Shown: positions 5,707 through 61,096 of the stretch, piece by piece
Layout of the letters: the number at the start of each line of letters is the position of its first letter
Numbering within the stretch: the first letter of the stretch is position 1
Assembly: GCA_040285825.1 (NCBI GenBank)
Contig: JAUPSS010000006.1
Span: forward strand, 248,001-312,000
Source of the DNA: Eukaryota sp. TZLM1-RC
Lineage: Eukaryota; Protista; Metamonada: BaSk clade
Reading direction: 5' to 3'
Length of the DNA: 64,000 nucleotides
The notes under the pieces: generated by a model
What the model was told of the DNA's origin: nothing
Seen by the model: only the letters and a program-made list of their open reading frames with translations
Databases searched by the model: none
Position numbers and translations under genes: made by a program

Positions 5707-6708
5707 TTATTTATTAAAAACAGAAATATTACCAGCAACTACTTCAGGATTGGTATCAGCAACCCAATACAGAATAGTTTTTTCATATTGGACGTAAAGT
5801 TCGTCATCAGCATTAATATCTTCCGCAGCAAAATAAGCAATCAAGGGATAAGTTACACCATCAAAAGATCGTTCCAAGTCGATGGCATAAACATTAATCT
5901 TTTCCTCGGATGAGGTGTTGACCATCCAGCCAGGACCATATTCCCAGAGTCGTGCCCTGGCATCAATGAAATAATGGTCGTTACAGATTGACCAGGAGAG
6001 AGAATATTGGTTGTCTGGGATTGACCTTTGGCGGAGCTGCATGGCCTTTTTGTCAACTGAGGATTCCTTGGGGTATACTTTGACCGTACACATCGGTAAG
6101 TAATACCCCTTGGAATTGTTATTGAGAGGAGGAGGAGACATAGGGGGATACACTCCTTTAAAGCTATGCGCATCATACAGTGATAGAGAACGAAGCTGAC
6201 TAGTGTCCCTGTACGGGAAGGCTGAAATTAAGGCAGTACGGCCAAGGTAATGGTTTACAAAGGCATCCTGCGAGAGCGTGGGTTCTTGGCAAATGTTGCC
6301 CACCACCCATCGACCATCTAGGAATTGAGCCATCACCGGTAATGAAGAGGTATAAACCAGCCAGACAGGATCGAGACCTTTGACATCACGCTTATGTGCA
6401 ATGACAATCGGTGCATCGCCATCTAGATGTTCTCGATGCCAATAATCAACATTACTGGCAAATGCCTTTACTTGTTGACACAGGTAAGAATTCCTGTAAG
6501 GCGGAATGAACAAGGGGGTGATCCGGGCTGGTTCATCTTGGACAGGCTCTAGTGGTGGCAAGCAGTCAGAATCGGAGCCACATTCTGCATCCCGTCTTGT
6601 TGCTTTGGTGGGTGGCTTTCTCTTCACGGAGCATCCATCTCTTCTGGCCTTGGATTGCCGTGTACTCACCCCCGATTTGCGCTTTCTACATCGTGTGGCA
6701 GGAGGCAT
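5707..6708 (-). CDS. SET-domain protein (divergent lysine methyltransferase), 333 aa, basic N-terminus
   Basis: YFIDAR..GPGWMVNTS..NV..YFAAEDINADDELYVQY matches SET C-terminal motifs (NHS-like and ELxxxY). Confidence 0.75.
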   Translation of the reverse strand: MPPATRCRKRKSGVSTRQSKARRDGCSVKRKPPTKATRRDAECGSDSDCLPPLEPVQDEPARITPLFIPPYRNSYLCQQVKAFASNVDYWHREHLDGDAPIVIAHKRDVKGLDPVWLVYTSSLPVMAQFLDGRWVVGNICQEPTLSQDAFVNHYLGRTALISAFPYRDTSQLRSLSLYDAHSFKGVYPPMSPPPLNNNSKGYYLPMCTVKVYPKESSVDKKAMQLRQRSIPDNQYSLSWSICNDHYFIDARARLWEYGPGWMVNTSSEEKINVYAIDLERSFDGVTYPLIAYFAAEDINADDELYVQYEKTILYWVADTNPEVVAGNISVFNK

Positions 6709-7007
6709 TGAGGTTGTGAGTAATATATAGGTTGAAATAAAAATTTCATTTACATGGAAGCTATATATTCCATTTCAGTTAAATGTATGGAAGCTATATA
6801 TTCCATATAACTACTCTCAAATTAAAACCTAAAACTTGCATCATTATAAACCCAAAACGTCATAAAAAGCATGGTAGTGTACATGTCTTGTTCAAACAAC
6901 TGAATAAAAATTATAAATTAAATTGAATTAAATATTGATTTAAAAATGCAAAACAAGCAGTAATTGAATAAAGACAAATACAAAACAAGGTGTATAATTC
7001 TAGTATC

Positions 7008-7230
7008 ATGAGTGATACAGATAAAGTATGTTTATATGTTGGATTAACCGTAGAAGACAGAGAGTGCTCAATTAGAGAGTGCTCAATCAGAGACAGAGAG
7101 TGTTGTACAGGGATCTAATCCACCCAATGTACCAACTCTACAGGACGCCCACGAGTCGAGTACTGATGATAGTTCTGTATGTAATCCTCTTGTGCTAACC
7201 AGAGATTTAATCTGTGGGGAAGCCCACGGC
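7008..7230 (+). pseudogene. 5' fragment of the telobox-Myb family gene (paralog of 39889); 28-nt introns at 7026-7053 and 7177-7204
   Basis: MSDTDK|KTESAQ..ESSTDDSS colinear with 39889-40070. Confidence 0.7.
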
Positions 7231-8217: not shown

Positions 8218-8835
8218 TTATTTTTATTCAACAACAAATATGAAATACACAATTAAAACTCCACATCCTCAAAACCTGCCTCCCCTACATCAAAACAATT
8301 AATCGCTAAAGATTCAGAAAATTTCCCAAAAGAAAATAGTGAATCAGAAATTAGTTTTACCATTCCCTTAAAAATAGAAAATACAATCCTGTTTTGCCAG
8401 TAAATACGATTGAAAATTCTTCCAGTTCTTTCCTTTACAACTACAACAAAATCCTCAAGGAAAGCCATAGCAGCCTTACCTAGAGATCCAAGCAAAGAAA
8501 AAACAAATGGACATAAATTATATTGGGCATGGGAATTTTCATTCACCGAGGAAATGGGTTTCGCATATTTAGCAATTTTATATTTTTCGCCTGCAAGAAG
8601 AGGATTATTTACATCCGAGTTAATGAGATGTTCGTTAGAGGAATTACAAGGGTCGATAGACATGGCGTCCAAAATAGTAAAACTACCATTTAAACCAGGA
8701 ACAACTAGATCACCTCTAGTCAGACCCATAGAAGCTCTGTTGTAACGCGTACTATCATTATTGGGATCATCAAGAATTAATTTTGATAACAGCGGTTCCA
8801 AAAAGGAATCTACTCTATATGATTTGCACATTACA
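8218..8835 (-). mobile_element. 5'-truncated non-LTR retrotransposon, restriction-like endonuclease (RLE) C-terminus with A-rich tail
   Basis: EPLL..RGDLVV..ILDA..EKYKIAKY..PFVFSLLGSLG pattern; the flank 8090-8217 continues without this element at 47112-47250. Confidence 0.7.
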
Positions 8836-9986
8836 TAAAAAATAAATTTTGAATTTTGAATTTTGAATTTTTTCAACCATGCTGCTATTTGCGTCTTGTT
8901 CTTAAAAATAGACAATAATGTTCTGACGTGGCACGTCAAGCCATTAACCCAGAATTGTTTACAGATGTCCTTAATAAGTAAGTTAAGTGAATGAGTGACG
9001 CAATGACTCGACAACACAATGTTATTATCCTGGAGAGTTTTGAAAAGACCAACAGCTGCTGCGTTGACCGTAGCTCCATCTAAGGTCAACCAAATGATCT
9101 TCTGAGCTTCTTCCACAATCTTTCTTCATTTCGTCAACCCCACTAGATTAGGATCAGAATGTATCTGTATCAATTTAGCCACTTCAGTAGCACCAAAGAC
9201 AATTATATCAGCTAGATGGTCTTGGTTCTGCTCTCGACAGTCCGCTGGTATACAACCGATGTAGAACGATCGTCCGTTCGAGGCAGCAATGATATTGTGA
9301 CGAGGTGTCATACCTGTAGAATAGCCATCAATAGAAAGTTCAAAGGAGTGTGAGATGAGTGAAGGAATAAAGCACTCGGCAATGAGAAGTTTAACTGTTT
9401 GATGGAGCTTTGGAAGAATTGAGTTGGACAGCTGCTGACGATTTGGACCCAGAAAATTAGGTTTAACTTGTTTAGAACGATGAATCTGAGCAAAGTAACG
9501 TAAGAAATCCTGAAAGGATTCCTTTTCAATAGTATTAAAAGATATCCCGGAAAGAGCAAAGGCGAGACATGCTTTCTTTCCTAAAGTTGCTTGAACGTCA
9601 TCTTCTACAAAAAAGTCATTAGTCTCCATTGGATCAGTTAGAGTAATTGCTTCACTAACAGAAGCTGACTCGATATAAGCCTTGTTGTTTTGTTCCTCAA
9701 TGGCTTTTTTTACCTTTTGTTCAGCTAGAAACATAGAAAGTTCTTTTGTATTTTCCCAACCAGAGCATGACGGGATATGGAGAGGTCCCCAGCGACAAGT
9801 GTTCTGCTTGGCGAAAACCTTACCACAGCCTCCACACCACACATCCATGTTGGTGGTGGTCTTCTTGTTGGCGATTTTCACCATTCGCCAGATCGTTTTA
9901 TTGCTATTGACGATATGGGTCTTAAAACCGGGAGGAGGTTCAAGTTTGAAAGACTCCCGGTAGCGGGGGGTGGAGGAAGATGTCAT
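8836..9986 (-). mobile_element. hAT-superfamily transposase, one in-frame TGA at 9126, 3'-truncated by the RLE element
   Basis: BED-like CxxC..H..C, ISFNTIE..F, PNRQQLS, first catalytic D in LSIDGYS, second D in LTLDGA, CxxH motif CVTHSLNL. Confidence 0.8.
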
Positions 9987-9994
9987 AATCAGAA

Positions 9995-10116
9995 TGCAAA
10001 AAAATACAAATCAAAAAATACAAAAAAATACAAATATATCGAAAAAAAATACAAATACAAATACAAAGAAAATACAGAATACAAATAAATACAGAAAATG
10101 GTATTTTGCAAGTATG
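9995..10116. repeat. Degenerate (AAATAC)n subterminal repeats and probable left end of the hAT element
   Basis: Repeated aaatac units ending in tgcaagtatg; absent from the homologous inverted copy at 26620. Confidence 0.55.
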
Positions 10117-15623: not shown

Positions 15624-16283
15624 ATGAAATATTCCAGAGCTTGTTGATTAAAAGGAACAAACCCTGGAACTTTGGTGGCAATTGGGGATAAGGCATGTCT
15701 TCGAAATACATTTGGGCATGTACTTTCTAGACGATGTAAAATTGACAATCCCCAATGGCTTATCAACCAACAATTATAAACAGTGACATCCAATTCATCA
15801 CGCCTCAGGGCACGCGTATACAAATCATTAGATGTTACTGTTTGGTTCCAAATTTCGGAAATATGAAAATGATATTCATCATACCATTGTCTTAAATTTT
15901 CAGAAATTGTGGAACCGGAAACCACACAACTGGCATACTTTGATGGAGCAGGACACTCCATCTGCTTACCCATAGACCTGAAGAAATTCAGTTTTCAGGT
16001 CACAGGGCCATCGGTCAGCAGCTGTCTGTGAGCTGATTCGAGTTGAACAGCTCTATTGCTAAAAAGAGCAGCCTGACAAAAGGGTGGATGTTCTTGGCCC
16101 TCTACTAACGGAGGCCACGGCCAGGTAGCACTTGATGTCATATGCATAAAAGCCTCATAGACATCAGGGTTAGTGCTCTTGAAAGGCTCCCTAATTTTAG
16201 GTCGACTGTGGGTGACGCAGTCGAAGCACTGCGACCAGAATTGACGGTGAGCGAGCCAGCAGGACAGATGCGGATAGATGCTC
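15575..16283 (-). pseudogene. Unknown 'DGPVxWKxNFF / CPxPxKYA' family member; TGA at 15995, 5' end replaced by Ty3 sequence
   Basis: QFWSQCFD..WPWPP..LLTDGPVT*KLNFF..CPAPSKYA..QWY aligns by eye with the 33362 ORF. Confidence 0.75.
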
Positions 16284-18204
16284 CTTGCAGAAATCCGTGC
16301 AACAAGTTAAGAGTGTCCTTAATGAGTGATTTGGGAATCACTATCTTGTTGTCGAGAGTCATGTATAAATCAAGATGATTGTTATGAACACTGTTGTTGA
16401 AAGAGGGGTCTTTGGAAGCTTCGGCAAGCTTCTGTTCCGACCTAATCCTACAGAGCCATGGCTCGAAAATAGGGAGGTCGTTGAAACATCGTTCTTTGAT
16501 GACCATGATACGTTCGAAATTGTTTAAATCTTCTATGTAGTATCTTCCGTTTTCTGTTCTATCTATTTTATCGATATAAAATATTGGATGAAAATTTGGA
16601 GACATTTGATGGGACAAATGATTGATCTCTTGATGGTCTATAGGCGGAACTATTCGAGACAACATATCAGCCCAGAAGTTATCTTCCCCTTTGGTGTGTA
16701 CCAATTCAAAGCAGAATTTAGAGAAAATGGGTAACCATCAGGTTACAATTCTGTTCTTGTCTGGAGCTGTGAACATGTAGGTAAGGTTTTGATGGTCTGT
16801 GAATATGACCAGTTTCCTTCCTTTCAAGTAGTTTTCGAAACCACTTTGTGTCAACATCAGTAAGATGGCATAGAGTTCCTTTTGGTTTGTTGGCCAGTTC
16901 TTTTGCGAGTTGGTTAGCAACCTGCTGAAGAAACTGATGGGCCTACATTTCCTGTTGATCAGGGGAGTACCGGGGTCGTCGACTTGTTCGATTTGTTCCC
17001 ATATGACGCCGCCTACAGCAATGTCGGATGCGTCGCAACTTATTAAAATTTGATTTTCCAGTGGAGGTAAGTTGTACGGCATGTGCTGAGCTATCAGTTG
17101 TTTGATCTTTTGAAGGAGTCCGTCATGCATATCCATTGTAGGCGTTGCGCTCGGGGTTTGGGTTTAATGTTGGCGTTGTTCCCAACCTTCTTAGTCAATC
17201 TGATGATAGGAGCAATGAGCTCAGATACCTGAGGAAGCCATTCTCTAATGAAGTTGACTGATCCTACGAGGCTGCGGACGTCTTTGATTGTCTTTGGTCT
17301 AGGTAGATTCAACAAAGATTCAACACGAGTGGGATCGAAGGTCCGTTGTTTGTTTTGGAAAACACTGCCCAGTATCTTGATGGGGTGTCTGGAAGACACG
17401 AAATGGCACTTTGGAAGTCCCAATGAAACTCTTTTGCATCTAGTTTGATCGAGGACGCGTCGGAAACGCTCGATGAATTCGTCAAAGGTTGAACCTATGA
17501 TTATGATGTCATCTATATAGATGAATACACCGTCTCCAGAGAAGATGTCAGCCATGACGTTTTGGAAAACGGCTGGGACATTTTTGAGGCCAAACGCTGC
17601 ACGTTTGCACATGATGCTTTCACCAGGAATGCTCAGGGCTGTTTTGTGCCAGTCCTTTTCAGCAATCTTGAGTTGCCAAAAGGCTTGGGGGGGGGGGGTC
17701 GAGGGTGCCTATGTAGTTTGCTTGAGAGAGAAATACCAGCACATCGGAGATCCTTGGAAGGTTGGGCTCAACAGGAATGGTGTTGGCGTTGACTCCGTCC
17801 TTGCCACTATAATCACCAGTAAGGCGGGGCTTACAGTGATCTGGGTAGACCACTAGACAGACAGGGGAGCTGAACTCATGGTTCGATGGAACAGCAAATC
17901 CAGAGTCTACGAGTTCGTCGAAAATTTGGTTAGCGACCTCTAGCCTGGCTGGATTCAGGGTCCTGGGGGGTTTTCTAACTCTGACGTCTTCATTGTAGAA
18001 GTTGATTTCCATGGGATTGGTGGGCAGACCAATCTTTCGCCTACTAATACACAGGGAGAAGTCGGGAGCCATTGGTATCTCACATGCCATGTCCGGATTA
18101 CTCCAATACTTTGCAAAACCCACCAGGTTTCTGGTTAGTGCTTTCAATAGCCTATTGTAATGTAAACGGTATTGGTGGTCCATGAGAATGGGGATATACG
18201 TCAA
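16284..18204 (-). mobile_element. Ty3/gypsy LTR retrotransposon pol (RT, RNase H, start of integrase), frameshifted and truncated
   Basis: FSSPVCLV, FGLKNVPAVFQ, YIDDIII (RT); CDASDIAVG, FFSRLL, ELYAI, FTDHQNL (RNase H); GEDNFWADMLSR; RT-RH-INT order. Confidence 0.93.
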
Positions 18205-21200
18205 GATGCAATTTCACCTATATTACTCTAATGATCTTAATGCTTTTTCCATGTTAATCCTTCCTGACGTTCTCTTGCTGAACAATGTTAGTCTTTCATC
18301 CAGCAGCTGATCTACACCCATATTTCAAAAGAAGGAAATGAACCATTGTATTTGATTGTATGTTGTGTTGTACATGGATACATAAATCAGTATTGGTATT
18401 TATTTTTGTTTCAACATTTTGTCAACACTAGTCAACAATTGGCAATGTTCCAATTATCGGGGTTAATGCTCAGATTTAGCAAGACATTGTATTTGGATAT
18501 AATTGTATACTATGACATGACTACTGCAATTGTGTTTCTTGTATCTGAAGAACAAATGCAACATTTTATAGATTTACATGGTATTTATAGTTTTGTATAT
18601 TTGATAAATAAACAAGGTTGTAATAGTCTTTATTATTGAAGAGTATTAGAAAACTAAGTATTAGCCTAGAAATAGGCTATTCGTATCCTTACAGGTGATA
18701 GGCCCATATAAATAGGCCCAGATAGATGTTTGTTTAATAAAATTTTAAAGTTTTACACCTCAAATATATTTCCAAGAAATTGCTCTCGAAAAAATGGAAA
18801 TTCAATTTGCTTGTATTTTGTTGTACAATAAAACAAAACTTAGTTAATTTATTTTTTACGTAATAAATGTTTGACACTTTTAGAGATTTTATGACAATTT
18901 ATGGGGAGGTTAATGATAATGAATTATCTTTAAAGAAAACCATTATTATTACATAATATATTGGTGAATCTATTATGATATTAAAACGATATTCTCCACG
19001 TTCATATCTTTCATAACGAAAATACCAAACTTCGATAGGATAGGATCGATAGGATTGACACATGAAATTAAATTTCTTCCAATAAAGCATGTAAACAATT
19101 TAAAATTATTCATTTGAAAAGGTGAATTCAATTTTAAACTTCATTTTCTGATGAAAAGTTTGTGATGTGTTGAACGCAAATTCATTGTCCTTCATGGATT
19201 CATTGACCATAATGCTATTTGTCAGTGATCAGTGGACCAATGACAATTAGAATTTATTCAATTCCAATCTTCGCCCACAAAAACATAGACGAGATTTACT
19301 AAAAAAAATTTTTGAAAAAAAAATTGTTGTTGAAAAATTCTATTTTTGAATTTCTCGATCGTTTCCCTGAAGACATTCATTTGCTGCTGAATCCATCATC
19401 TACGCATTATTTGTATGACCTTGATATTGCTATTAATAAAATTACACCAGAAATTGGGTTGTTCTTGCAATGAATATAATATATCAAATGATAAATTATG
19501 TTTGAATTGTGTAATCATGTTGAAAATATTCAAATAAATATTAATTCATCGACAAACAGATTGAATTTGTAGACAAGTGTTTGAATTGTGTTGACAGAAA
19601 AAGTATATATTAATAGGGAATTGAAAACAACTAACTCTGAACTTATGACAGGAGCTTTATTTTGTAAAAAATTGGCCAATACACAGTGAATCAGCTGATG
19701 TTAGTTTGTCAATGATCCATACCAATCTCAGTTTGTGTCAGAAAAAATGTTAAAACAGAGACCAGAATCAATTTATTTATATCGGAAATCTCCTTTTAAA
19801 TGGTAATCACCAATCAGAAATAATAAAACAAGAATATAGGCAACTCACTAGTGAGCTGACTCGTGGGTACTGTCAGGAGACATGTAAGATACTGTAAATG
19901 AATAAATGAATTACTCAATTACATACATTCCTTAAATGTCATAAAACTACTCCTCTAGTGACATCACTTCTCAACACATACTTGTCAAAAGATGTATAAA
20001 AACCAACCAAGAACAGCATGAGCTCATTTTTCAGTGGCTTTGTTTTAGTATTTGTAACTATCAATATTTGTTGTACCTTGAAAATAAACTCTTGGTGTTG
20101 CCTTATGTTTAAATGAGTTAGGAAAATTGGATTTATTTTCTATTTCAAAGTAATTTTTTATTTTACCACATTATATAAGAATTAAGGCTCCACCACAGCT
20201 TCTTCCTTTTTTCAGAAATCAATCATCTTATACGAATATGAAACCAAAATATAAACAAATAAATAAATAACTATCAATACTGAGAACTAGCTATGGTTCC
20301 TAATTCTATCACTACGTCTAAGAAGTTTAGTGGACGTAGCGTAGGACACTACCTATGGTCGAAATTTTCGATCTTTTTTTGGTCAAACATTTTTACAAAC
20401 ACGGTACTTTATTCTACTACCCAATAATTAATACCCAAACATATAATTAATTCCATCAAGGTCTTTAGGTACCCATTCAATGGTTCACTGTTAAAGAAAA
20501 GAGGTATGTAAAAGGACGTAGCACACAATGTGATCCTGTTGAAAGTTAAAAGACGATGAAACAACCTTGACAGCGACCATTTTTTTACGAGCGTTTGGGT
20601 GTCTAGTTCATTCGGAACGACCTTTTCATATAAGCAGCAGAGCAGTGAGATTAGTAAAACCAGGTGATACATCCAAAAGAACTGCACAGGGGAGCATTTG
20701 TAGCAAAGCAGCTTTTGCCGTTTGATGCAAAGTTTTTTTTATCACTGATTTTGGACCGACGATGTTCATAAGAGATGTCTAGGTGTATATCAACCATAAA
20801 AATTGTAGATAAGATAAATAAAAGGGACTAAAGGTCATCCGCAGAAGCGTGTGGTACTTTTTAACGTATTATATCGTTCAAAGAACGAAGTAAAAGGTCA
20901 GCTTGTGTATTTAGTCCGGACGACGGAATAGATGATAATCGTCTTCCAGAAAATGACACTACTGAAGGAGAAACTAAGGAGAAACTAAGTATAGATATTA
21001 ATAGATACTCCCCTGTAATTAGAAAATTAGTTTATAGATATGTACAAGTCTAAAAAGCTGAAAATTGAAAAGAAAAATGAAACAATGAATAAATACCGTA
21101 TAAATAAATACTTTACTACTGACTAACAATAAATTTACATATGATAAATAGAATAATAATAATAATAATTTTTTATTTGTTAAAATATGGTTAATTTAGA

Positions 21201-36138: not shown

Positions 36139-36618
36139 ATGTATATATCAATTATTTGAGTTATTGATAAAATCAACAATCTGGTTCTTGCTCTAGAACG
36201 TCTGTCAGTGAGCCCTTTTCCCTTTACGATGTATCATTTTCCTCCTTTACCAGCCATTGATTGAGAATTGTTGATATAGATAAATGAATTTTTGTTTGAA
36301 TTGTTGAGTTTAAGTTTCATTGAATCCCACCAATGAACTATATTTATAAGAATTGCCGTCGTCCCAATGTTGCTACTTGTTTCCTCAACATTGAGTCTCC
36401 TCCATTAAAACAACCTCGTCTTAAATCTTCTCACAAATCTTCACCCTTATACCTTACTTCTTCTTTGATGAAGCTGATTTATTGGTACCTTTTAACCAAC
36501 ATATACAAGACCTGGAACCACTATCCGTCTAGAGTATTGTCGCTCTTCACTGAACGAAATTGCATTAGCAAGAGGTTTAGAAGTCTTCCAAATTCATCCT
36601 ATTTGTTTCAAAAAATGC

Positions 36619-37075
36619 GTGAAGGATCCTTCGGATTTCATTCTGCATCAAAATATTCATGACTTGGATGTCATATTTGAAAATCCAGTAAGAAACCTGA
36701 CAGTTATCAATAACAATATCAAGATAATTGACATTGACTTGTTCAAAGTGAAATATCAACCTCAATTGTTGTCTTTTTGTCCAAAGGTGGAAGTAATGCT
36801 TGGAGGGTCATTCACTTTGGATTTAAATCGTGTGAATTTGACACATTTATCCAATTTGAAAAATCTACATGTTAATTTCAATTGTAATGTGCAAAAATTA
36901 CCTCCTTCACTGATCAAGCTCATTATCAGTTGCGGTGATGTCACAGATTTAAGTAATTTGACATCATTAAAGGAGTTGGTTATACATGAATCCACTTTAG
37001 GATTGAAAATCTCAAATGGCCAAGTGGCTTTATCTCAATCTATTGAAATCTTTATTGAAATCTTTATTGAAATCA
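36619..37075 (+). pseudogene. Leucine-rich repeat protein fragment
   Basis: NLTHLSNLKNLHV, KLPPSLIKLII, DLSNLTSLKELVI; ends at a 12-bp tandem repeat. Confidence 0.65.
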
Positions 37076-39888
37076 ATCTTTCTTCTCTTTCGACTGCGTT
37101 CATGTCGAAGGAGCCAAGAACCACTGCGCCGACTATTTGTCTTGAGCCAACTTTACGAACTCCGTCCCCAAGAAGAAGAAAGAAGAGAAGAAGACCAGAC
37201 GTATCTTTGATAACCCTGCCCCTGCCCTGTGTCACATGATGACTCACCAAGATCAGACCAAATCCCTTTTGTGGAACTATCTGAACCTTGATGATTTGAG
37301 ATACAACTCCTCCCGTCATTGGTATGACATTGCTTACAGTGTAGTGGCTTATCTGAACTCTTTGAAACACCTTATTCACTATAACGTCAACCCAGAACAT
37401 CCCAGGTTTTTCTGCATGTACCATTTGCAAATCTGTGAACAGGTGGAACCAGTCACCTGTTCACCTACGCATGTACACCATAAGGCATTTATCCAACGAA
37501 ATCGAAACAAATGCTCATTTACTTATTGTGACAAAAATGTTACAATTGAAAATGTGAACCCAATGACCCATCAGTAGCCTGGTGATGTTTTAAAATGTGG
37601 GTACTGTAATTTATCAGAAGTTTTTTTTGAGTGGGGAAGGTGTAGCTGTTACAATCAACGTCAACTTCATTGACGTGGACAAAGAAACGTACAAAGCGTG
37701 GCAGCAAGAGCGAGTACAGCAAGAGGTTATCAAAATGCAAGTTGAAGATTTAAAAGAGCTCAGCACAGGTTTATTGGCTCCATTAACCATTTGGAAATAC
37801 TGGGCCTCTCTTGTGCTGAAGATACAGATGACCCTTATTTGGCGTGTGCTTAAACGTTGAGAAATGGTTACAGTGCGTGGTAACAGTGCTTCTCATTCGT
37901 TATTGCAAATGAGGAAATAATTCATAACCAAAATTGTTGTAAGTATTAAACCTACAAAGATCCAAAAACATGTAGACTATACAAACACACGTAATCAGAT
38001 CTTTCTTGACCGTAATCAACCTGAAACAGTGAAAAACTGAATGATTGATGACTACTCAGTCGTTTATGTATTTATGATATGAGACTCAAAATAAAGAGAA
38101 TTACTCTCAATATTTGATAGAGAATCTGATAAAAACGAATCAATTTAAAAATAAAATGAGGAACAACGAAATCCAAAAAAATAAATGTTGCATAGGTGAT
38201 CTTGTAAATCAGAAAATAAAATTGAAGAGAGAAATTCAACAAACGTAACTGAACAATTTAAAATTAATTAAATGGCAACATAGATGAAGCAGAAAAGATT
38301 CATGGTAAACAATATTAAAATCAGTAATAGTAATTGATAATAATCAAATACAACAACAAATGAAATGACAATTATTATGCAATAAAAGCAAAATACATTT
38401 GAATAAGGAGAAAAAGAAATTAACAAAGTCTTTCCAGTCTTAGAGGTAGTGACACTCATCCAAAACCACAGGAAATTAACACTAATAAAAAGAGATTAAA
38501 AAAATCCAGAGTGAGAAGCAGGAAAATAAGTAAACATCATAGAAACTAAAACTCAAATTCAAAGTAACCATTAATAGCAGTTGAACCACGAACAAGAACA
38601 GTTTCTAAATCAAAAGTAGATTCAGTAACAATAGATTGAAATTGACAACCAACAACAACCTAACCTCGGTTAAGGCAAAATGTGACAACATTCATTGTCA
38701 GTTCCGATAAACTAGTAGTAAACAAACAAAGTAGAGACTCTATAATTCAAAAAACAATTGTTTTAAAAAAGTCAACACAAATTCAGACTAGGCTGAACGA
38801 AAAAAAGAACGTAAACCTATTAAGCCAAAAAGATATTCGAAAGAACAAAAACAATTGAAGGGTCAAGTTAAGGGTTGAGCAGACAAAGTGGGTCATGATG
38901 GATGGTGTTGCAAGCTTGCTACAATATCATAGTCAGTAATGGTAAGTGATAATAAACAAATCCAAGATCAAATGAAGAGGTTCATCAATAGCGAATTCAT
39001 TGATAACTTTAGAATTAGAATCAACTGGACCTAACATTTGACATTGGTGAAATCCAAAACTTTGGCCAATTAAACCTTGAAGAAAAAAAATTTTGGGACA
39101 AAATGGCAAAAATCCAAAAGTATTCGGGCACAAAGTTTTTACAAGCACGGTATAGAAAAAAAAATTCCGACATGTCGGCTGATGGTTGAATTATGAGGAT
39201 GAATAAATGAAAAACACCAATGTCCCAGGTTCGAGTCCCACCTATTCCAAAAAACAAAACAAGAGTCCGATTTTCAAGTCTCAGTAATGAAGAATTAAGT
39301 TGTAAAGCAAGTTGTAAAGCAAGTTTTGAGGTTCAATGATGTTGAATGAAACAAATAGCGGTCGACTGACGGGACAATAGGGAGACAACATGATGAGCAT
39401 TGATCCGAAAGGAAACGAGCATCAAGAGAGAAAGAGATAATTGTTAGCAATGACAACAAAAACAGAATCAAGAAGAGAGATCAAGACCAAAAGCAGTATC
39501 GAAATGATGTTGACGGCAGCAGAACAGAGCGTCTACCATTCTGTGTAGATGAGGGGAAGAGATAAGCAAGTACAATCCCAGAAGGATCAATACCAAAGGA
39601 GAAAGGAGTTGAAGAGGGAGTTGAAGAGGGGAAGTGAAAGTGAAAATCACAGTCTGCTAGAAAGTTCAAGTTCCCAACTTCAGCATCGATATTTGCAACC
39701 AAACCAAACTAAAACTTGCATCAATATAAACTCAAAACGTCTTGAGATTCATGGTAATCCACATATGTTTTTCAAACAACTGAATAGAATTTATAAATTA
39801 AATTGATAAACAATATTTATTTAAAAATGCAAGACAAGTAGTAATTGAATAACAACAAATACAAAACAAGGTGTATAATTCTAGTATC

Positions 39889-40562
39889 ATGAGTGACAAT
39901 ATTCAAGTATGTTTATATAATGGATTAACCATAGAAGACAGATAGTGCTCAATCAGAGACAGAGAGTGTTGTACAAGAATCTAATCCACCCAATGTACCA
40001 ACTCCACATGACGCCCACGAGTCGAGTACTGATGATAGTTCTGTAAGAATTCCTATTGTGCTAACCACAGATCCAATCTGAATCCCCTGACTCTAGTTCT
40101 GAAGAAGTTCTAATCCATTCACCACCACCTCCTAGGGACACACTACTGAAAATAACTCTAGGTAGTTTCATCAGTCATTTTGGTGTCCCAGCAGTACTTA
40201 CTACTGTTGCTGATATGGTGGATGTTAGAGCAAGAAGAACTGGTAGCAGTGTTGAACCAACTAAAACACAAAGGACTGCTATTCAGCCGGTGAGCGATGA
40301 AACCAGTGTACCCGTGTCTACTAAGAGAGTTCACTGGACCCCCCAAGAAAGTAAAAACCTGTGGATTCTGTGGAAAAACACAGATCCAAATCCTTGCCGC
40401 AGAAACAACTGGAAACGAATTCTAGAAACTGGACACATGCAAAGTGCTTTTTGTGCTGATCGCAACCCTGGTAAGCTCAAAGACCGTCTCCGTTGGCTCC
40501 AGGACAATCCTCATTATGGTAAAGAGCAAGATTTCCCAGAGGATGAGAAAGAGGATCAATAG
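39889..40562 (+). CDS. Intact spliced telobox/TRF-like Myb protein, 205 aa; exons 39889-39906, 39935-40042, 40071-40562
   Basis: Two 28-nt GT..AG introns give one open frame; C-terminal HWTPQESKNL..NWKRIL..F..RNPGKLKDRLRWL. Confidence 0.8.
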
Positions 40563-48240: not shown

Positions 48241-48549
48241 GTTAATATATATACCAAGTCAATGGATTGAAATTGTTGTAAACAACACTCAGAATTTCTT
48301 CACAGAACATATAAATGATTTATGAAAGAGTTGTATGACTTTTGGAAAAATGTGTTTTTAATCAACTTTATTTCAAAAAATTAACTACTGCTTACGCTTT
48401 TTAATTTTGGTTCGTTGAACAACAGGAGGTGGACGATTTCCTGGAATAATCTTCTGCTGAGGTTTCTTCATTTCTTTTTTCTACCAAACTGTGTTGATGT
48501 GAAACAGAACTGTTACTATTAAAATCATTATTTATTACAAACAATAAAA

Positions 48550-53900: not shown

Positions 53901-55412
53901 TACTTACAACAATTATATTTATGAATTAATTTGAGGGTTTCTTTTTTTACCTCAACAAAATTAATTCATTTTATTTTCTTTTTGTACTACAACAATTTAA
54001 ATTGATTTTTTTTGAAAGATAGAATGAGGATAGAATTGTCCTCTCCGCTAGAGCTGGAGGAAGACTGAGCGTTAGCGGAAGGAGGATATCTTGTCATGCC
54101 AGTCATGACATGATTTGACATACGAGACGCGTAAATCTTAAGAGCCTCAACTCAGCGGGAGATGGATTCTCGACCGGTATGTTCTAAATACAGGGCAACT
54201 GGGAAGGAGAACGTATCCTTCTTGAAGATTCTGGAGTGATCCTTTCATCGACGAGATATGGACCAATTCTGGGAGAGATCCATAATCCTAAGTCGTTCTC
54301 GACTTTAGGACCGTAGAAAGGAGGACGTTTGTTGCTCATCTCCGTGGGAGGGATGGCTTCTGGGTCCTCCGGAAGGACCTGTGGATCCCTATAACGTGCA
54401 TAAGGATTGTGCTGACGGGAAGCACCGTGATGATGAATACTAGAGCTAGCGTGGTAGCTTGTTTGGGTGGGAGTGAATTGAGCAGGTGTAGAGGATGTTC
54501 CTCTTCTAGCTTGAATCATCCACCGGTGGTGTATTGAGAGCAGACTGAACACTGTTATTGGTCTGAACCACAGACTCTCTGAAAATTTTCCTCCTGACGG
54601 GAACTCTGCGCACTATCTGCAGTGGAGTTTTAGTACAACTATTAAAACTATCAATTAATTAAAACGAACTTTTTTTAATGGAGGAGGAAGGGTGTTTTTC
54701 GGTAACTTTGGAAGTTTCAACTTTGGTGGGCTCTGCAACTTTTGGGTGGTTATCAGAATTGTACTGACACCAAATGCAGTCTGGGTCAGACTCAGTAGGA
54801 GGATTTGGATCATTCAAATCCAAGTAATCATCGTCTTTGTGATTTAAAAGGTGATGGGTTCTGTCTCTATTGTTTTTACACGTTTGACAACGATGTCTGT
54901 TGTGAGTAGAACAAACAGTAGCACCTCCATATGTCTCGCCTACAGATTGAGATGAGGATAGTTCTGAGAAAGAGCGTTCTGCATCAGACCAGTCTTCTAC
55001 CTTTGCAAGACCGGGACGAGGAGGCGAGGGAGGGCAAACAGGGTTCTAATGTTAATAAAGCGATGGTCACATACATCAGCAAGCTGAGTAGCATCTTGGA
55101 TATGCTGATCCTGGGTGGATGTGCATCCATGGGTTCATCATTTGTGCTGATAACAGCAACAACACCAGGTACGGCAACAGCAGATGTGACACAGTCAAGT
55201 AGCTCTTGGAGAGTGTACTTGCCAGTTAAAAAGACTTCGCGGGATAAGTACTGTGATTAGTGAATGTGTCGGAACCCGACATACTTGGTTAATCATAACG
55301 AGAATTATGGGATATGAAAATTCGAAATTTCATTCATGCTATTTAAATATTTAGACAGTATAATGGTGTGGAAAAATTTTAAATTTATTTTTATACGTGT
55401 GATGACGTGTCA

Positions 55413-56330
55413 CTATTTAGATCTATTAATATAAAGGATACGAGTACCTCCTACTGCTTCAATAACTGAATCTGATGTGATTTTACCTGGGTCTGTCATA
55501 ATCATCATAAGTAACCGGTTGCGTTTAGCAACATATGGGTTTCCTCCTTCAGAACAAGACTTGGAGTAATCTACCCATAAATTAAGTGCTGAGGCAACAT
55601 TGAATTCTGCAATATGATTAGTTCCTGTGTGATCTGTTGGTTTAAATTCGACTAATCTATCTTGAAGTACTTGGAAACGTTTGAGCATGAATGCATGACT
55701 GAAAACATCAACCATTGGTTGCTTTGGGTCATAATTAAAATTACGATAAGCAGCATCGTGGTGATTGGAATCATATGATGCAAACATACATGGAAGTATG
55801 TCATGTGCGAAGGAAGTTGGTGCTTCTGGAAAACCATCAGCTTGAAATGTTTGATTACCTGGTTCAAGTTCCTGGAATTTAGCATATCTTGGCATGTAAC
55901 TTGGGTTGTTAGGTTCCTTATATATAAAAAGGATAACACGTGCACGTGGATGAGAACATTTAGTTGCTTTAAGAGCAACGCGTGATTCAATACCTTTGAT
56001 AACAATTGCCTTATCTAATGTGTTTGTAGATTGAGAATTAGCTTGAATTTGTGTTAAATCTTGAATAGTCAACCATTTACCATCTTTAGAATAATAAGGT
56101 GCAGATTGTGCAAGAAGATTCTTAACTGCCTGTTTTGAAGAATCAATTGTTGGATTTAATGGAAAAATTGCATGTTCCAATGGAGTACTTTTACGAGGAG
56201 CATAAGTGCGAGAAGGAGGAGGTTTGTAAAGAGATCGTAAAGATCTGCGACCATATGCACCATAACCAGCATTACGTGCCCTACGATTAGGAAAACGTCT
56301 TCTGCGACGAAATCTACGACGAGGATACAT
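55413..56330 (-). CDS. cap: CRESS virus capsid protein (Arg-rich arm, jelly-roll), virion sense
   Basis: MYPRRRFRRRRR N-terminus; RVILFIYK, RFQVLQD and C-terminal RILY resemble gemini/genomo/STNV-type capsid strands. Confidence 0.85.
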   Translation of the reverse strand: MYPRRRFRRRRRFPNRRARNAGYGAYGRRSLRSLYKPPPSRTYAPRKSTPLEHAIFPLNPTIDSSKQAVKNLLAQSAPYYSKDGKWLTIQDLTQIQANSQSTNTLDKAIVIKGIESRVALKATKCSHPRARVILFIYKEPNNPSYMPRYAKFQELEPGNQTFQADGFPEAPTSFAHDILPCMFASYDSNHHDAAYRNFNYDPKQPMVDVFSHAFMLKRFQVLQDRLVEFKPTDHTGTNHIAEFNVASALNLWVDYSKSCSEGGNPYVAKRNRLLMMIMTDPGKITSDSVIEAVGGTRILYINRSK

Positions 56331-56368
56331 GTTGTGAAAAAAATAATGTTATTTTTCTGATTTCTCTT

Positions 56369-57403
56369 ATGACACACGAACTTGCTTACTCAAAAACTCA
56401 AACTGATGCTGGTAATCTCTGGAACCTTGGTTTAACCAAATATAATGGTGGAAAAAATGACGTGATAAGAACAAAAAGATGGAACCATACCGGTACCATC
56501 GGAACAACTGACTTTATGTGGGTCATGTACAACACTCACACGAATGCTTTGAATGAATATGTATGGCCATGCACACATGTTCTAGATAATGATAAGGCCA
56601 AAAACGGAATTTTCAATCGAACATATTTAAAGTGGAATGAGGATTCAGAAGATGATGAAGAAATAACTAATGATGCAACCAGAAGAACAGTTGCACCAGC
56701 TAACAGACCAATGGTTGTAAGTAACAACAATGGTTTTGACTTTGGAGAAGGAACTGATTTTTCAAGAACAAGATTGTACTTCCGGATGACGTTAGATACT
56801 ATTTCATATAGACATGGATATGGAATAGGAAATGGTGCCGATCAATTAATAGAAAGACGGCATTTTGTCAAAACTGAAGAACATTATGATTGTGACTACA
56901 TGGGCAGGTTGATTATTTGGATAGACAACACAATGGAAGGAGAATGCGCTCTGATAAATAATGAACAATGGTGTGAAGATATTCAAAGAAGTCCAGAAAG
57001 GGAAGATTTAGTTGCTAATGACTTTGAATATAATTGGTCTAAATATTGGACCAATGCAACAACTGGTATGTTGCGTTATAGAGGTAAAAACACTACTGAA
57101 ATACTGAGTGCAAAGTGTAAAGGTAAAGTTCTTCATGATGAAATCTTTGATATTAAATACAAAGAAATGAATGTTGTTGAAGGTGTTGTAGAAGGAATTG
57201 CTGATAGGAGTGAAGGACCAAACTTAACTGATGAAGGTCCTTTAAAGTATACACTTATAGTTGGAGGTATGAGAGGAGGTGTTGAAACGAATTCAGCTTA
57301 CTTTGAAGGAAATTGGGGTACGTATGACCCTGAACCTTTTGCTATAATGGGTAATGTGCTGAATTATAGTATGGTGTTTGATTTTAGATTTAGTTCAAAA
57401 TAA
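56369..57403 (+). CDS. Viral 344-aa protein, putative second jelly-roll/minor capsid
   Basis: Intact ORF; GRLIIWID, KVLHDEIFDI and terminal VFDFRF parallel the capsid strands; no basic arm. Confidence 0.55.
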   Translation: MTHELAYSKTQTDAGNLWNLGLTKYNGGKNDVIRTKRWNHTGTIGTTDFMWVMYNTHTNALNEYVWPCTHVLDNDKAKNGIFNRTYLKWNEDSEDDEEITNDATRRTVAPANRPMVVSNNNGFDFGEGTDFSRTRLYFRMTLDTISYRHGYGIGNGADQLIERRHFVKTEEHYDCDYMGRLIIWIDNTMEGECALINNEQWCEDIQRSPEREDLVANDFEYNWSKYWTNATTGMLRYRGKNTTEILSAKCKGKVLHDEIFDIKYKEMNVVEGVVEGIADRSEGPNLTDEGPLKYTLIVGGMRGGVETNSAYFEGNWGTYDPEPFAIMGNVLNYSMVFDFRFSSK

Positions 57404-57408
57404 ATGAT

Positions 57409-57822
57409 TTATGGTAAACCCATATATGGGCGGCGTCTACGAGCTGCTATAAATTTCTTTCTTCTAGTTACAAAGTTAATAAAATCTTTGTTCTTAAAGT
57501 TTTTCTTCCAATCATCTGTAAATTTTTCTCGTCTGTTGACTCTATCATTTACACGTTTTTTGTGAAAAAGAGAAGATGGATCTTTAGGTTTATGAAGTCT
57601 GGACCATTCATAATATAAACCTTGTTTGTATTCACGACCGAAAGATGGAAGATGTTGATTGGGGTCAGGATCAGGAATATATGAATATTCCACTTGGGGA
57701 TATTTGGGTGTATGAAGTGCTCCTGCACTGTCTCTTTCCTTGTAAACGTCTGTATGAGGTTTTTTAGGTGGATGATAACCTTCCCATTGGGGAACAAATG
57801 TACCTATTCTTCTTTTACCCAT
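57409..57822 (-). CDS. Viral basic protein, 137 aa, in frame with the upstream ORF
   Basis: Intact, K/R-rich; its stop is 5 nt from the convergent ORF's stop. Confidence 0.65.
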   Translation of the reverse strand: MGKRRIGTFVPQWEGYHPPKKPHTDVYKERDSAGALHTPKYPQVEYSYIPDPDPNQHLPSFGREYKQGLYYEWSRLHKPKDPSSLFHKKRVNDRVNRREKFTDDWKKNFKNKDFINFVTRRKKFIAARRRRPYMGLP

Positions 57823-57909
57823 ATAAGCCTTTTGATATGTAGGATCAGTTTGTGCCTTTTCGGCATCAAAATCAGCATCGAAATATCTATTATGATGATA
57901 ACCAACTAG

Positions 57910-58710
57910 TTAGTTCTTAAGATGAGGGTGTTGAATGTCGTCCCACTTGACTTCGCCTGGAGCATGGCGAGTGTTGATACCTGGATCTCTTTTAAACTGT
58001 TTTTCTGTAGCGTGTTCAGTAGCATGTGTTGATGTAGATACAAGAGATATCTTACCATCTTTACCTTTAGATATATACTGTGGCTCAGTAAATTGATGAA
58101 CCATATGGTCTCTTCTACGTTGATTAAGTTCTGCACGACTTCGCATATAATTGCGATGTCTACGATAAGATCTATAAATAGACATTGGAAGATTAAGGGC
58201 CGTGTAAGGCATATTCCTTCTTCTATAATAAAATTTGGGTCTATAAGATCTTTGTTGATAAGGAAAACTACGGAAACTATAATTGTTTCCAAGAGGTTGA
58301 TGAAGAGATGATATATGTAAAGGCATATGATTATTTCTGGAAGGTATAGCCCATTGGGGTCTATTTTTCTCCCAATAATGATTTGTGATTCTATCACCAA
58401 TAGCACCAATAACTTTTTGGTGCGTAAAAGGATGTGATAATGTAGAATAAAGGACTTGACCATAAGGAGATTGGGTTGTAGACATCCATTTATATGATTT
58501 GGATGCTAAACCATAACCTTCAGGAGCTAGGGAACCTAGAGCTGCCATTCCTGCACTCTTTGGATAATCGCGCCAATTATGGTTTGATTTTCCAAAAGTA
58601 TTTTTGAAAAATTGATAACCAGTGCCGATAACTGCACCAGTTAAAGCCCTGGTGAAGGGATTTGCAACAACGGGATAAAGTGTGTTAGGTTGTAATTGGG
58701 GTATGTTCAT
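57910..58710 (-). CDS. Viral 266-aa protein, Gly/Ala-rich N-half and Arg/Tyr-rich C-half
   Basis: Intact ORF starting 56 nt from the origin stem on the virion strand. Confidence 0.7.
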   Translation of the reverse strand: MNIPQLQPNTLYPVVANPFTRALTGAVIGTGYQFFKNTFGKSNHNWRDYPKSAGMAALGSLAPEGYGLASKSYKWMSTTQSPYGQVLYSTLSHPFTHQKVIGAIGDRITNHYWEKNRPQWAIPSRNNHMPLHISSLHQPLGNNYSFRSFPYQQRSYRPKFYYRRRNMPYTALNLPMSIYRSYRRHRNYMRSRAELNQRRRDHMVHQFTEPQYISKGKDGKISLVSTSTHATEHATEKQFKRDPGINTRHAPGEVKWDDIQHPHLKN

Positions 58711-58765
58711 GAAGGGAAATAAAATGAAATTAAAAATTGCATTTGGTGATGACGTGGCAACACTT

Positions 58766-58798
58766 GAAAAGCGTGGGTAATACTAATTCACGCTTTTC
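58766..58798 (-). promoter_or_regulatory. Rolling-circle origin: perfect 10-bp stem with TAGTATTAC nonanucleotide (58777-58785, minus strand)
   Basis: gaaaagcgtg-ggtaatactaatt-cacgcttttc. Confidence 0.95.
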
Positions 58799-58843
58799 TA
58801 TCATTCTCACTGTGTGTGTCATCATCATCTTGATTCACTATAG

Positions 58844-59185
58844 ATGGTAAACCGAAACCCTGTCAAGAGCTGGTTCTTCACTTTGAACAATCCAAGCGAA
58901 GAGGAAACGAATGCTTTGGTCGATGACTTGAAAGGATTGGCAAGATGCGCAACTGTTGGAAAGGAAGTAGGAGAATCCGGAACACCTCATCTACAAGGAT
59001 GCTTTGTGCTGAGAGATGCCATGAAACTAAAAGATTTGAAGAACAAGCTTAATGAAAGAGCCCATTGGGAACCTATGAAGAACGTAAAGAAAAGCCGTGA
59101 ATATTGTAAAAAGGAAGGTAATGTAATCTTAGACTTTGGATATCCTGAAGCTAATATTGACATCAATAAATTAAAACTGTTGTAA
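58844..59185 (+). pseudogene. rep: CRESS Rep, HUH endonuclease domain only (helicase lost)
   Basis: Motif I FTLNN, motif II PHLQG, motif III YCKK; the last ~11 codons derive from the flanking repeat. Confidence 0.93.
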
Positions 59186-61096
59186 GCAAAACATAGAATT
59201 TGTTTGTAGAAATTAACAAAGATTTATGAAAGAGTTGTATGACTTTTTGAAAAATGTGAGATTTTAAAATAAAATTTCAAATTCTCTATCAAATATTACA
59301 AACTCTTATATACCATTTCATACTTGCAAAAGCTTATACAATACACACATAATTAAAAGGTTTTACAGTTCCATAGTTTATTTTGAAGTTATGCAAAATG
59401 ATATTCTTCCATAAATACCCAGTAAAATTCTTACCACTTGAACGACATAAATTATTATAACAAATCTGAACAAAGTTTTGTTCAGAGTAGTTTCACTAAC
59501 ACAAATGGTGCGAGGCAGTACATTCAAACAAACGATGTGAGACGTTAGTGTGGATGAATGAAAAGTTAGTCTTCAGTGGGATCAGCCGACCTAAATCTGA
59601 CTCACGTTGACCATTGAAATGTTATTGGACCATTTATTGCACTAATTGTGTACATTCTAAGTTTGGTAGTACATGAAATCTTAAATATTCCTTAATCCAT
59701 CTCTAACTGATCGGCATTGAATCTTCCTCATGTCTCATCACCCCGTTTAAAAACTTATTGACAAGGTGACTTCTGATCCAAACACGAAACATGTTAAGTC
59801 GTTATTCACAAGTTGACTTGGCTTGATATGATTTGACTTGAGTCATTAGATAATGTTAGTTGAAAGTTCCATTTATTGAAATGAAAAACACACTATTTCC
59901 ATCTCCAATCCCTTTTGTTTTATTGTACCGAGCCCCCTGGAGTCGGGCATGCTTAGGCCTTCCCCTTTTATTCCGAGAATGCATGACGCTTTCTTCTTCC
60001 GGCGTCAGCACCTCATATATGCTCATCGTTCTTGCTTTTGATGTCTGTCACACCCTTGATGTTGTTGTTCTTGCTTACGATCGTTTATTTCTTAGTTCTT
60101 TCTTTAGTTTTTCTTGTTCTCAATTGTTGTTTAGAGCAGTCCTCACCAAGCCACACACTCAGTATCTCAGTAGATCGACGTCATTTGTCATTCTCAACTC
60201 CATCATCTTTTCGTTCAATCTTTAGCAACATTTGTGCTTTATCATTTCCTGAGTTTTTTCCTTCATTGGGACTCGAACTCGTGACTCTTTTGATTTTTTT
60301 TGGAGTTGGTGAGATTCGAACCCAGGACCTCAGTCTTGTCCAATTTTGATGAACCTGGAATTTGACCAATGTCCAATGTCTAAACTTTAGGTCCAGTTGA
60401 TTTTAATAGTAATGTTATTGATGGATGCTATTTACCTCTTATTACCCTTGTTAAATCCATTGTTGAGTTTGATCATTTAGTTGTTGTTGGTTGTTCAACT
60501 TAATCTTTTGCTACTGATTAATCCATTGAATTAAACTATGTGGGTTTGCTACTCATGACCATTTTACATTAATCAAAATTAATTGGATTATGATTAATGA
60601 TGTGTTTCTGAATCTTGTTATGGTTTATTTATCAATGTAGATGACTCAATTGTGGATTTCACCAATATTAAAACTTTAGGTCTAGTTGATGCTGAAGGTA
60701 AAGTTATTAGTGGATGCACTAATAATTTTCCTCTCATTACCCTTGTTAAATCTAATGTTGATCCTGTACTTGTTGTTTGTTGTTTGTTGTCAATCTCAAT
60801 CTATTGATGCTACTTATTCTACTACTGATTTCGAAACTGTTGTTGTTGGTGGTTCAACTTGGATGATTACCTTGAATTAACCAAAACTACTTTGAATTTT
60901 TTAAATTTAGAGTCTCTATCAAACATTGAGAGTAATTCTCTTTGTTCAGAATCTCTAATAATAAATACATAAACGACTGATTAATCATCAATGATTCAGT
61001 TTTTAACTGTTTGAAGTTGATAACGGTCAAGAAAGATCTGATTACGTGTGTCTGTATAGTCTACATGTTTTTGGATTTTTGTAGGTTTAATACTTA

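What the first reader, a model, noticed from the sequence alone, without database searches (positions are those of the whole stretch)
55400..59150. Recently integrated CRESS virus with an unusual multi-ORF ambisense genome
Seen: a perfect TAGTATTAC stem-loop, Rep motifs I-III and four other uninterrupted ORFs packed with 5-87 nt gaps. The order is cap(-), ORF344(+), ORF137(-), ORF266(-), ori, rep(+). Known: circo-, cyclo- and genomoviruses usually carry just Rep and Cap in ~2 kb; a nonamer on the strand opposite rep is the cyclovirus-type polarity. Inference: with a full Rep the genome would exceed ~4.3 kb, so this may be an undescribed protist-infecting lineage with a direct host link. Intact ORFs amid heavily decayed DNA suggest recent integration.
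Basis: partly seen in the sequence, partly recalled or inferred. Interest (0 to 1): 0.9.

Follow-up and report, generated by a model that had tools for sequence, protein, structure and literature searches.

The report
Orphan ssDNA virus fossil in protist
A transposon-rich eukaryotic genome holds most of a small circular-DNA virus (capsid gene, replication origin, a cut-off replication gene and three more reading frames with no relatives found), likely a recent insertion from an undescribed virus lineage of anaerobic flagellates, in which two of those frames are predicted to be spliced into one gene.

Summary
The anatomy is as described: cap(-), ORF344(+), ORF137(-), ORF266(-), a 10-bp hairpin with TAGTATTAC, rep(+). 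Rep is cut at about codon 102 by a host repeat; no helicase is in the window, so the circle was at least about 4.3 kb. Cap is predicted to be a gemini-like jelly roll. Cap and ORF344 found only themselves in large protein searches; ORF266 found nothing in smaller ones. The closest Rep is a fragment in the genome of the skoliomonad TZLM1-RC (53% identity, 97-98% branch support); family placement is unstable. New here: ORF266 and ORF137 share one frame, and ORF266's stop sits inside the element's only host-type branch-point/3' splice signal, so they are likely one alternatively spliced gene (266 or 383 aa; about 50%). Reads show viral depth like unique flanks, but no junction-spanning read was seen. 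Five-ORF ambisense genomes, this polarity and Rep+Cap insertions in protists are already known (Kirkoviridae, Vilyaviridae), so the architecture is less unusual than claimed. Verdict: likely genuine, young insertion of an undescribed cressdnavirus lineage; interest 0.6.

The parts
55384..55409 (-). Left end of viral DNA: AATAAA after the cap stop and first copy of the 11-mer GTGATGACGTG; exact left junction not fixed (between the host repeat starting at 55312 and here)
55413..56330 (-). cap, 305 aa, Arg-rich N-terminus, predicted gemini-like single jelly roll; virion sense
   Evidence: (0.97; TM 0.56)
56331..56368 (.). 38-nt AT-rich gap between the divergent starts of cap and ORF344 (likely bidirectional promoter)
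   Evidence: function inferred
56369..57403 (+). ORF344, acidic (pI 5.0), rich in beta-forming residues, no relative found; AATAAA overlaps its stop
57409..57909 (-). ORF137 plus 29 open, coding-like codons upstream of its ATG (166-codon frame); predicted second exon (57905-57409); basic, C-terminal Arg cluster
57906..58055 (-). Predicted 150-nt intron: donor GTAAGA at 58055, fused branch point and acceptor ACTAACTAG at 57914-57906 overlying the ORF266 stop
   Evidence: splicing not observed
57910..58710 (-). ORF266, basic (pI 10.3), Gly/Ala-richer N-terminus, Tyr/Arg-rich middle; no relative found; virion sense
58746..58756 (+). Second copy of GTGATGACGTG, beside the origin (2 copies in the window, 0.06 expected)
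58766..58798 (-). Origin hairpin, 10-bp stem, nonamer TAGTATTAC at 58785-58777
58844..59149 (+). rep, HUH endonuclease domain only (motifs I-III), cut at about codon 102; complementary sense
59148..59310 (+). Host repeat forming the right junction (81% like window 48259-48354; held by run X2, which lacks the viral words)

Best explanation
This is a 3.75-kb piece of a circular Rep-encoding ssDNA virus (cap, three further frames, origin, the front third of rep) lying in transposon-rich eukaryotic DNA, likely inserted recently into the chromosome of an anaerobic metamonad-type flagellate and likely from an undescribed lineage whose closest known trace is a Rep fragment in a skoliomonad genome. 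Shown: the ORFs, the hairpin, Rep's HUH motifs, the cut in Rep at a host repeat, the sister relation to P0003. Inferred for the free virus: Rep would nick the nonamer and drive rolling-circle copying of a circle of at least about 4.3 kb; the - strand would be packaged; cap and ORF266/137 are virion-sense, rep and ORF344 complementary-sense, each pair of starts facing away from a short AT-rich gap. ORF266 and ORF137 are likely one gene (about 50%): the unspliced RNA would give 266 aa, and removal of a 150-nt intron whose branch point contains the stop would give 383 aa. Both products are basic and are predicted to be internal DNA-binding minor capsid proteins (about 45%). ORF344 is most likely a second beta-rich virion protein on the outside (about 35%). 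The insertion is inferred to come from repair-mediated capture of a broken double-stranded replication form, because neither end lies at the nick site. Without the helicase half of rep this copy would not replicate on its own.
For: Rep. Cap: independent Atlas model matches Cressdnaviricota capsids (0.97, TM 0.56); own model pLDDT 62 with geminivirus capsids on top. Sister Rep: best of 72 hits is P0003 from Eukaryota sp. TZLM1-RC (type isolate of Skoliomonas litria), 53% over 85 columns, 15 identical residues across motif III, 97% and 98% SH-aLRT in two trees. Flanks: reverse transcriptase, hAT-like and SET-like remnants, repeats 71-94% alike. Reads: 6 listed viral pieces in run X1, 0 differences, depth 2.0-3.4, against 2.5 and 4.4 for two flank pieces. 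Age: chance of all five frames staying open is 0.06 at 2% substitutions, 0.03 at 1% with indels. Splicing: 1 of 180 TAA trimers in the element has the RCTAAC..YAG context and it is the ORF266 stop; the only consensus donor in ORF266 is in the joining phase; the host DNA has 4 tiny GTA[AT]G..RCTAAC..AG elements against 0.04 expected, the fused type described for diplomonads and parabasalids; the 29 codons behind the stop look coding (GC1 0.59, GC3 0.14); no AATAAA lies between the two ORFs on their strand.
Against: No junction-spanning read or contig was seen (one search showed 16 of 75 pieces), X1 covers only 0.24 of the words and may be the source sample. The window's host was not determined; the skoliomonad link rests on one Rep fragment and on intron style. 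The intron pattern was drawn from the same sites it counts, two of the four sites are copies of one repeat, and removal opens a long frame at only 1 of 4. The predicted viral intron is five times longer than the host-type ones and has no special fold (z 0.48); donors are common (5 on that strand). The cap model used an alignment of gemini-like capsids at 8-18% identity, which leans toward that fold. ORF344 and ORF266 roles rest on composition only; ORF344 scored no better than shuffles against capsid profiles.
Confidence: 0.78

Rival explanations
1. The virus is a free circular genome in the culture (infecting the protist or another organism) that the assembler joined into a host contig.
For: All frames are intact and identical to the reads; no spanning read was seen; both ends abut repeats, where misjoins occur.
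Against: Depth equals unique flank depth, with no excess; a third of the circle, including the helicase, is absent from the window and no near-identical full Rep was found among 72 longer hits; each of the five proteins is on record once, on one 1.52-Mb contig; a sister Rep fragment sits inside another megabase protist contig.
Confidence: 0.1
2. It is a divergent member of a named multi-ORF or metamonad-infecting family (Kirkoviridae, Vilyaviridae, Gandrviridae).
For: Po-circo-like viruses have 3.9 kb, five ambisense ORFs and rep opposite the nonamer; kirkoviruses infect parabasalids and vilyaviruses Giardia, both metamonads; a Gandrviridae Rep is the sixth hit.
Against: Po-circo-like Rep motifs are CFTIND/PHIQG/YCTK against FFTLNN/PHLQG/YCKK here; their other ORFs are 112-186 aa and the origin lies at the 3' end of rep. 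Vilyaviridae average 59% GC against 37% and have circovirus-like capsids; Gandrviridae have 468-aa bacilladna-like capsids. No named kirko- or vilyavirus Rep was in my trees, so this is not a phylogenetic exclusion.
Confidence: 0.08
3. ORF266 and ORF137 are joined by stop-codon read-through, not splicing: the stop is followed by CUAG, a leaky-stop context (recalled, not tested).
For: Same frame, TAA-CTAG; coding-like codons on both sides.
Against: It does not explain the ACTAAC branch-point match or the in-phase donor; the recalled context is best known for UGA.
Confidence: 0.12
4. The TAA is damage acquired after insertion in a 433-codon gene, or ORF137 is a separate gene with its own ATG.
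For: One break is expected at 0.5-1% divergence; ORF137 has an ATG; in-frame adjacency with 29 open codons has about 4% chance, not negligible.
Against: A random stop has the acceptor context about 0.5% of the time (14 of 2952 host TAA). ORF137's leader has 8 T in 25 nt, the mean of internal ATGs (7.1), against 16 for ORF266 and ORF344; but cap and rep have only 10.
Confidence: 0.25
5. The element is old and kept intact by host selection (domesticated genes).
For: Intact frames amid decayed DNA; all five are gene-called in the NCBI record.
Against: Viral layout, origin and A/T-ending codons are untouched; each protein's cluster has one member, so no orthologue at 90% is on record.
Confidence: 0.04

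Closest known systems
Rep fragment in Skoliomonas litria TZLM1-RC (P0003, KAL0205753.1)
   Same: Sister HUH domain, 53% identity, shared 15-residue run across motif III, also ends shortly after the endonuclease domain.
   Different: Embedded in a 410-aa host gene model without motif I; its neighbourhood could not be read, so whether cap and the orphan ORFs accompany it is open.
Kirkoviridae / po-circo-like viruses 21, 22 type (PMC8307498, PMC9615429)
   Same: About 4 kb, five ambisense ORFs, rep on the strand opposite the nonamer, metamonad (parabasalid) hosts shown by endogenous copies.
   Different: Other Rep motifs, much shorter extra ORFs, origin at the 3' end of rep, CAGTATTAC; no 305-aa cap plus 344-aa ORF.
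Vilyaviridae, Naryaviridae, Nenyaviridae and their endogenous copies (PMC7493932)
   Same: Rep+Cap insertions in anaerobic protist genomes; Vilyaviridae infect Giardia, in the sister group of skoliomonads and barthelonids.
   Different: Described with Rep and Cap only; Vilyaviridae 59% GC with another capsid group; hosts are gut parasites.
Gandrviridae (Sthenivirus nowtis, P0008)
   Same: Large CRESS genomes (5.2-9.1 kb); Rep 45% identical over the HUH domain.
   Different: 468-aa bacilladna-like T=3 capsid against a 305-aa gemini-like one; not a supported sister in either tree.
Spliced CRESS genes (crucivirus Rep and Cap introns, PMC7468197; mastrevirus RepA/Rep, recalled)
   Same: Intron retention or removal giving two products from one locus.
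   Different: Here the predicted intron is in a non-Rep, non-Cap gene and uses a fused branch point/acceptor that contains the stop codon.

Membership tests
Cressdnaviricota | HUH Rep endonuclease with motifs I-III | tested here: met
Cressdnaviricota | SF3 helicase fused to the endonuclease | tested here: inconclusive
   Absent from the window because rep is cut at the junction
Cressdnaviricota | Stem-loop origin with NANTATTAC | tested here: met
Cressdnaviricota | Single jelly-roll capsid protein | tested here: met
   Predicted:
Cressdnaviricota | Circular ssDNA in virions | not testable with these tools
   Only an inserted linear piece is seen
Kirkoviridae | Rep clade membership | not tested
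   No named kirkovirus Rep was among the fetched sequences
Kirkoviridae | Rep motifs of po-circo-like viruses (CFTIND/N, PHIQG, YCT/SK) | tested here: not met
Kirkoviridae | Gene order and ORF sizes of the 3.9-kb type | tested here: not met
   Table 2
Vilyaviridae | High GC (mean 59%), circovirus-group capsid, Rep and Cap only | tested here: not met
   37% GC, gemini-like fold, extra ORFs; family values
Vilyaviridae | Rep clade membership | not tested
   No named vilyavirus Rep was among the fetched sequences
Gandrviridae | Large bacilladna-like capsid protein (about 468 aa) | tested here: not met
   305 aa, geminivirus-like top hits
Gandrviridae | Rep groups with Sthenivirus | tested here: inconclusive
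   Far apart; same unresolved 7-row fork (91)
Circoviridae (Cyclovirus) | About 2 kb, two ORFs, circovirus-type capsid | tested here: not met
   family traits recalled
Endogenous viral element | Reads or PCR spanning both virus-host junctions | tested here: inconclusive
   Depth like single-copy flank, no spanning piece among 16 of 75 shown

The most novel reading that the evidence does not exclude
This is the near-complete record of a new cressdnavirus family infecting free-living skoliomonad-type metamonads, for which my searches found no virus described. Its virion would use four proteins (gemini-like capsid, an orphan beta-rich outer protein, two isoforms of an internal DNA-binding protein), the isoforms made by alternative splicing at a host-type branch point that doubles as the stop codon.
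Probability: 0.3. Interest if true: 0.8.

Novelty: new variant of a known kind. Interest (0 to 1): 0.6.

Why it matters
Most CRESS viruses have no known host. An insertion that keeps cap, origin and accessory genes ties a whole gene set to a host and gives probes for the free virus. The host lineages named so far among metamonads are gut parasites; a link to free-living soda-lake flagellates would widen that range. The accessory proteins have no relatives in the searches run, and the predicted stop-in-branch-point splice can be tested with one RT-PCR or one related genome.

Tried and rejected
No relatives: ORF344 (IMG/VR; 1 of 1744 candidates, itself; Atlas best 0.77; PDB), cap (1 of 328, only itself among 1.84 billion; metagenomes; one search reported 2 passing stretches but returned 0 loci, unexplained), ORF266; PHROGs nothing under E 0.03; none of 709 ORFs from 188 Rep-bearing loci under E 0.07. 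ORF137 was only scanned against Pfam, PHROGs and these loci. ORF344 single-sequence model pLDDT 28, so no fold search was run. My eye-read likeness of ORF344 to capsid strands was not borne out (score 11.7, shuffles up to 18.1). Cap plus ORF344 complex: no verdict. A short-linker placement of Rep appeared in one tree (91) and reversed in the next (99); rejected as unresolved. TAA/TAG = Gln was considered and dropped on reasoning: none occurs in frame in over 1100 codons other than the stops. Origin-motif scan of IMG/VR gave one 35-kb contig, not examined further. Rfam: none. No RNA holder listed. Left junction not found by alignments within the window. Earlier notes: none relevant.
Full report
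Observation. The origin is a perfect 10-bp stem with TAGTATTAC in a 13-nt loop on the - strand, the only copy in the window; the region folds at z -4.82. Rep matches Pfam Viral_Rep (E 1.4e-15) and solved Rep domains. Nine proteins, seven of them Rep relatives, searched against the window found Rep sequence only at 58844-59176, so no helicase is present.

Ends. A host repeat, 81% like window 48259-48354, aligns from 59148, and run X2, which holds next to none of the viral words, has a contig matching from 59152 with other DNA before it. Rep is therefore cut at about codon 102. On the left, both runs have contigs that match from 55312 onward; AATAAA at 55389 and an 11-mer shared with the origin region (2 copies, 0.06 expected) suggest viral DNA reaches about 55384. 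The exact left junction was not found. Neither end is at the nick site, so capture by host repair of a broken double-stranded form is more likely than Rep-led insertion (inference). Adding 165-245 missing codons (top Rep hits of 268-346 aa) gives a circle of about 4.3-4.5 kb or more.

Real insertion or misjoin. In run X1 the six listed viral pieces have 0 differences and depth 2.0-3.4; two flank pieces have 2.5 and 4.4. This fits one copy per genome, with no free virus in excess. It is not proof: 16 of 75 pieces were shown, none crosses a junction, and X1 may be the source sample. Each of the five proteins is on record once, on a 1.52-Mb contig. The flanks hold reverse transcriptase, hAT-like and SET-like remnants (Pfam hits for 3 of 18 frames scanned, two below cut-off). 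Under neutral decay all five frames would stay open with chance 0.06 at 2% substitution, or 0.03 at 1% with indels (300 runs each), while nearby repeat copies are 71-94% alike. The insertion is thus young relative to its surroundings; no date can be given.

Relatives. Of 72 longer proteins matching Rep, the best is P0003, a host gene model of Eukaryota sp. TZLM1-RC whose last 90 residues are a Rep fragment; TZLM1-RC is the type isolate of Skoliomonas litria, a free-living anaerobic metamonad (PMC11603281, passages). The two share 15 identical residues across motif III and pair at 97% and 98% SH-aLRT in quick trees of 148 and 74 rows (the second a random subset; 101 columns). Their deeper place flipped between trees, so no family can be assigned, and no named kirko- or vilyavirus Rep was included. 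The sets were picked for likeness to this Rep. I did not determine the window's own host.

Cap. No sequence relative was found. The Atlas placed it with Cressdnaviricota capsids (0.97; TM 0.56). A model built with 45 gemini-like capsids reached pLDDT 62, with geminivirus capsids as top solved matches (E 6e-7) and CRESS capsids as top predicted ones; that alignment leans toward this answer. ORF344 is acidic and beta-rich with no relative or fold; an outer virion protein is my guess at about 35%.

ORF266 and ORF137. They share one frame split by one TAA, and the 29 codons after it look coding (chance of in-frame and open about 0.036). The TAA lies in ACTAACTAG, the only RCTRAC..YAG site in the element on either strand and 1 of 180 TAA trimers with that context (host rate 14 of 2952). 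The only consensus donor in ORF266, GTAAGA at 58055, is in the phase that joins the frames, giving 383 aa. The host DNA shows four 26-33-nt elements GTA[AT]G..RCTAAC..AG against 0.04 expected; one has the same one-base spacing, and removing another opens a frame from 12 to 163 codons. Fused branch point and acceptor are described for Giardia, Spironucleus and Trichomonas (PMC6679479, passages), which also fits a metamonad-type host. Against: the pattern is post hoc, two sites are copies of one repeat, three of four open no long frame, the intron is long for this host and unstructured, spacing is strict in the described species, and no RNA was available. I put splicing at about 50%, damage or a separate ORF137 at 25-30%, read-through at 12-15%. 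The products are basic (charge by segment); an internal DNA-binding role is inferred by likeness to minor capsid proteins recalled from memory.

Comparison with the known. Rep+Cap insertions in Entamoeba and Giardia are described (PMC7493932, passages and section 7), as are kirkovirus insertions in parabasalids (PMC9615429, passages and section 8). Po-circo-like viruses have five ambisense ORFs in 3926 nt with rep opposite the nonamer, but other motifs, ORF sizes and origin place (PMC8307498, passages with Tables 2 and 3). Gandrviridae reach 5.2-9.1 kb with larger capsids (PMC11945456, passages and section 21). Spliced Rep and Cap genes are predicted in cruciviruses (PMC7468197, passages). In my loci 83 of 188 have the nonamer hairpin opposite rep, 63 on the same strand, 37 none, 5 both. 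I found no report of a virus in skoliomonads: searches 'Skoliomonas' (11 papers, 9 listed), CRESS/endogenous/metamonad/Barthelona and cressdnavirus/endogenous/protist/free-living (0); 'virus' and 'viral' occur 0 times in the main texts of the two skoliomonad papers (supplements not seen). The library lacks most subscription papers.

Verdict. A likely genuine (about 0.85), young, partial insertion of a cressdnavirus that matches no family on the features I could test, with a likely link to skoliomonad-type hosts and a predicted spliced accessory gene. New variant of a known kind; interest 0.6.

Noticed in passing
L106 (18-kb contig), L093 (27-kb contig), L040 (15-kb contig): Full CRESS-type Rep among many packed ORFs, some looking by eye like SET-domain and exonuclease proteins, plus a shared ORF family of about 280 aa also in 4.8-6.4-kb CRESS contigs L014, L044, L048. 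Possibly very large CRESS-like genomes.
   Followed up: no
window 7177-7202(+), 40043-40070(+), 31921-31889(-), 19722-19695(-): Tiny intron-like elements of 26-33 nt with fused branch point and acceptor; they point to a metamonad-type spliceosome in the host.
   Followed up: partly
window 58844-59149: Rep has more G/C at third positions (41 of 102) than the other viral frames (239 of 1081; p 1e-4); the gap exceeds that in 53 of 54 control genomes. May mark a recombinant rep.
   Followed up: partly
window 55399-55409 and 58746-58756: The same CRE/G-box-like 11-mer stands at both intergenic regions in the same orientation, each followed on the - strand by an AT-rich run; a further gene may have followed cap.
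   Followed up: partly
window 16138-18213(-), 8253-10010(-), 5707-6774(-): Broken LTR-retrotransposon pol (RVT_1 E 5e-10), hAT-like transposase pieces (DUF659, weak) and a SET-like frame (weak).
   Followed up: partly
window 36496-37239(+): Leucine-rich-repeat-like frame without a Pfam hit; resembles repeat families recalled from anaerobic flagellate genomes, untested.
   Followed up: no
P0003: This second Rep fragment also stops just after the endonuclease domain; chance, or a fragile or spliced site in this lineage's rep.
   Followed up: no
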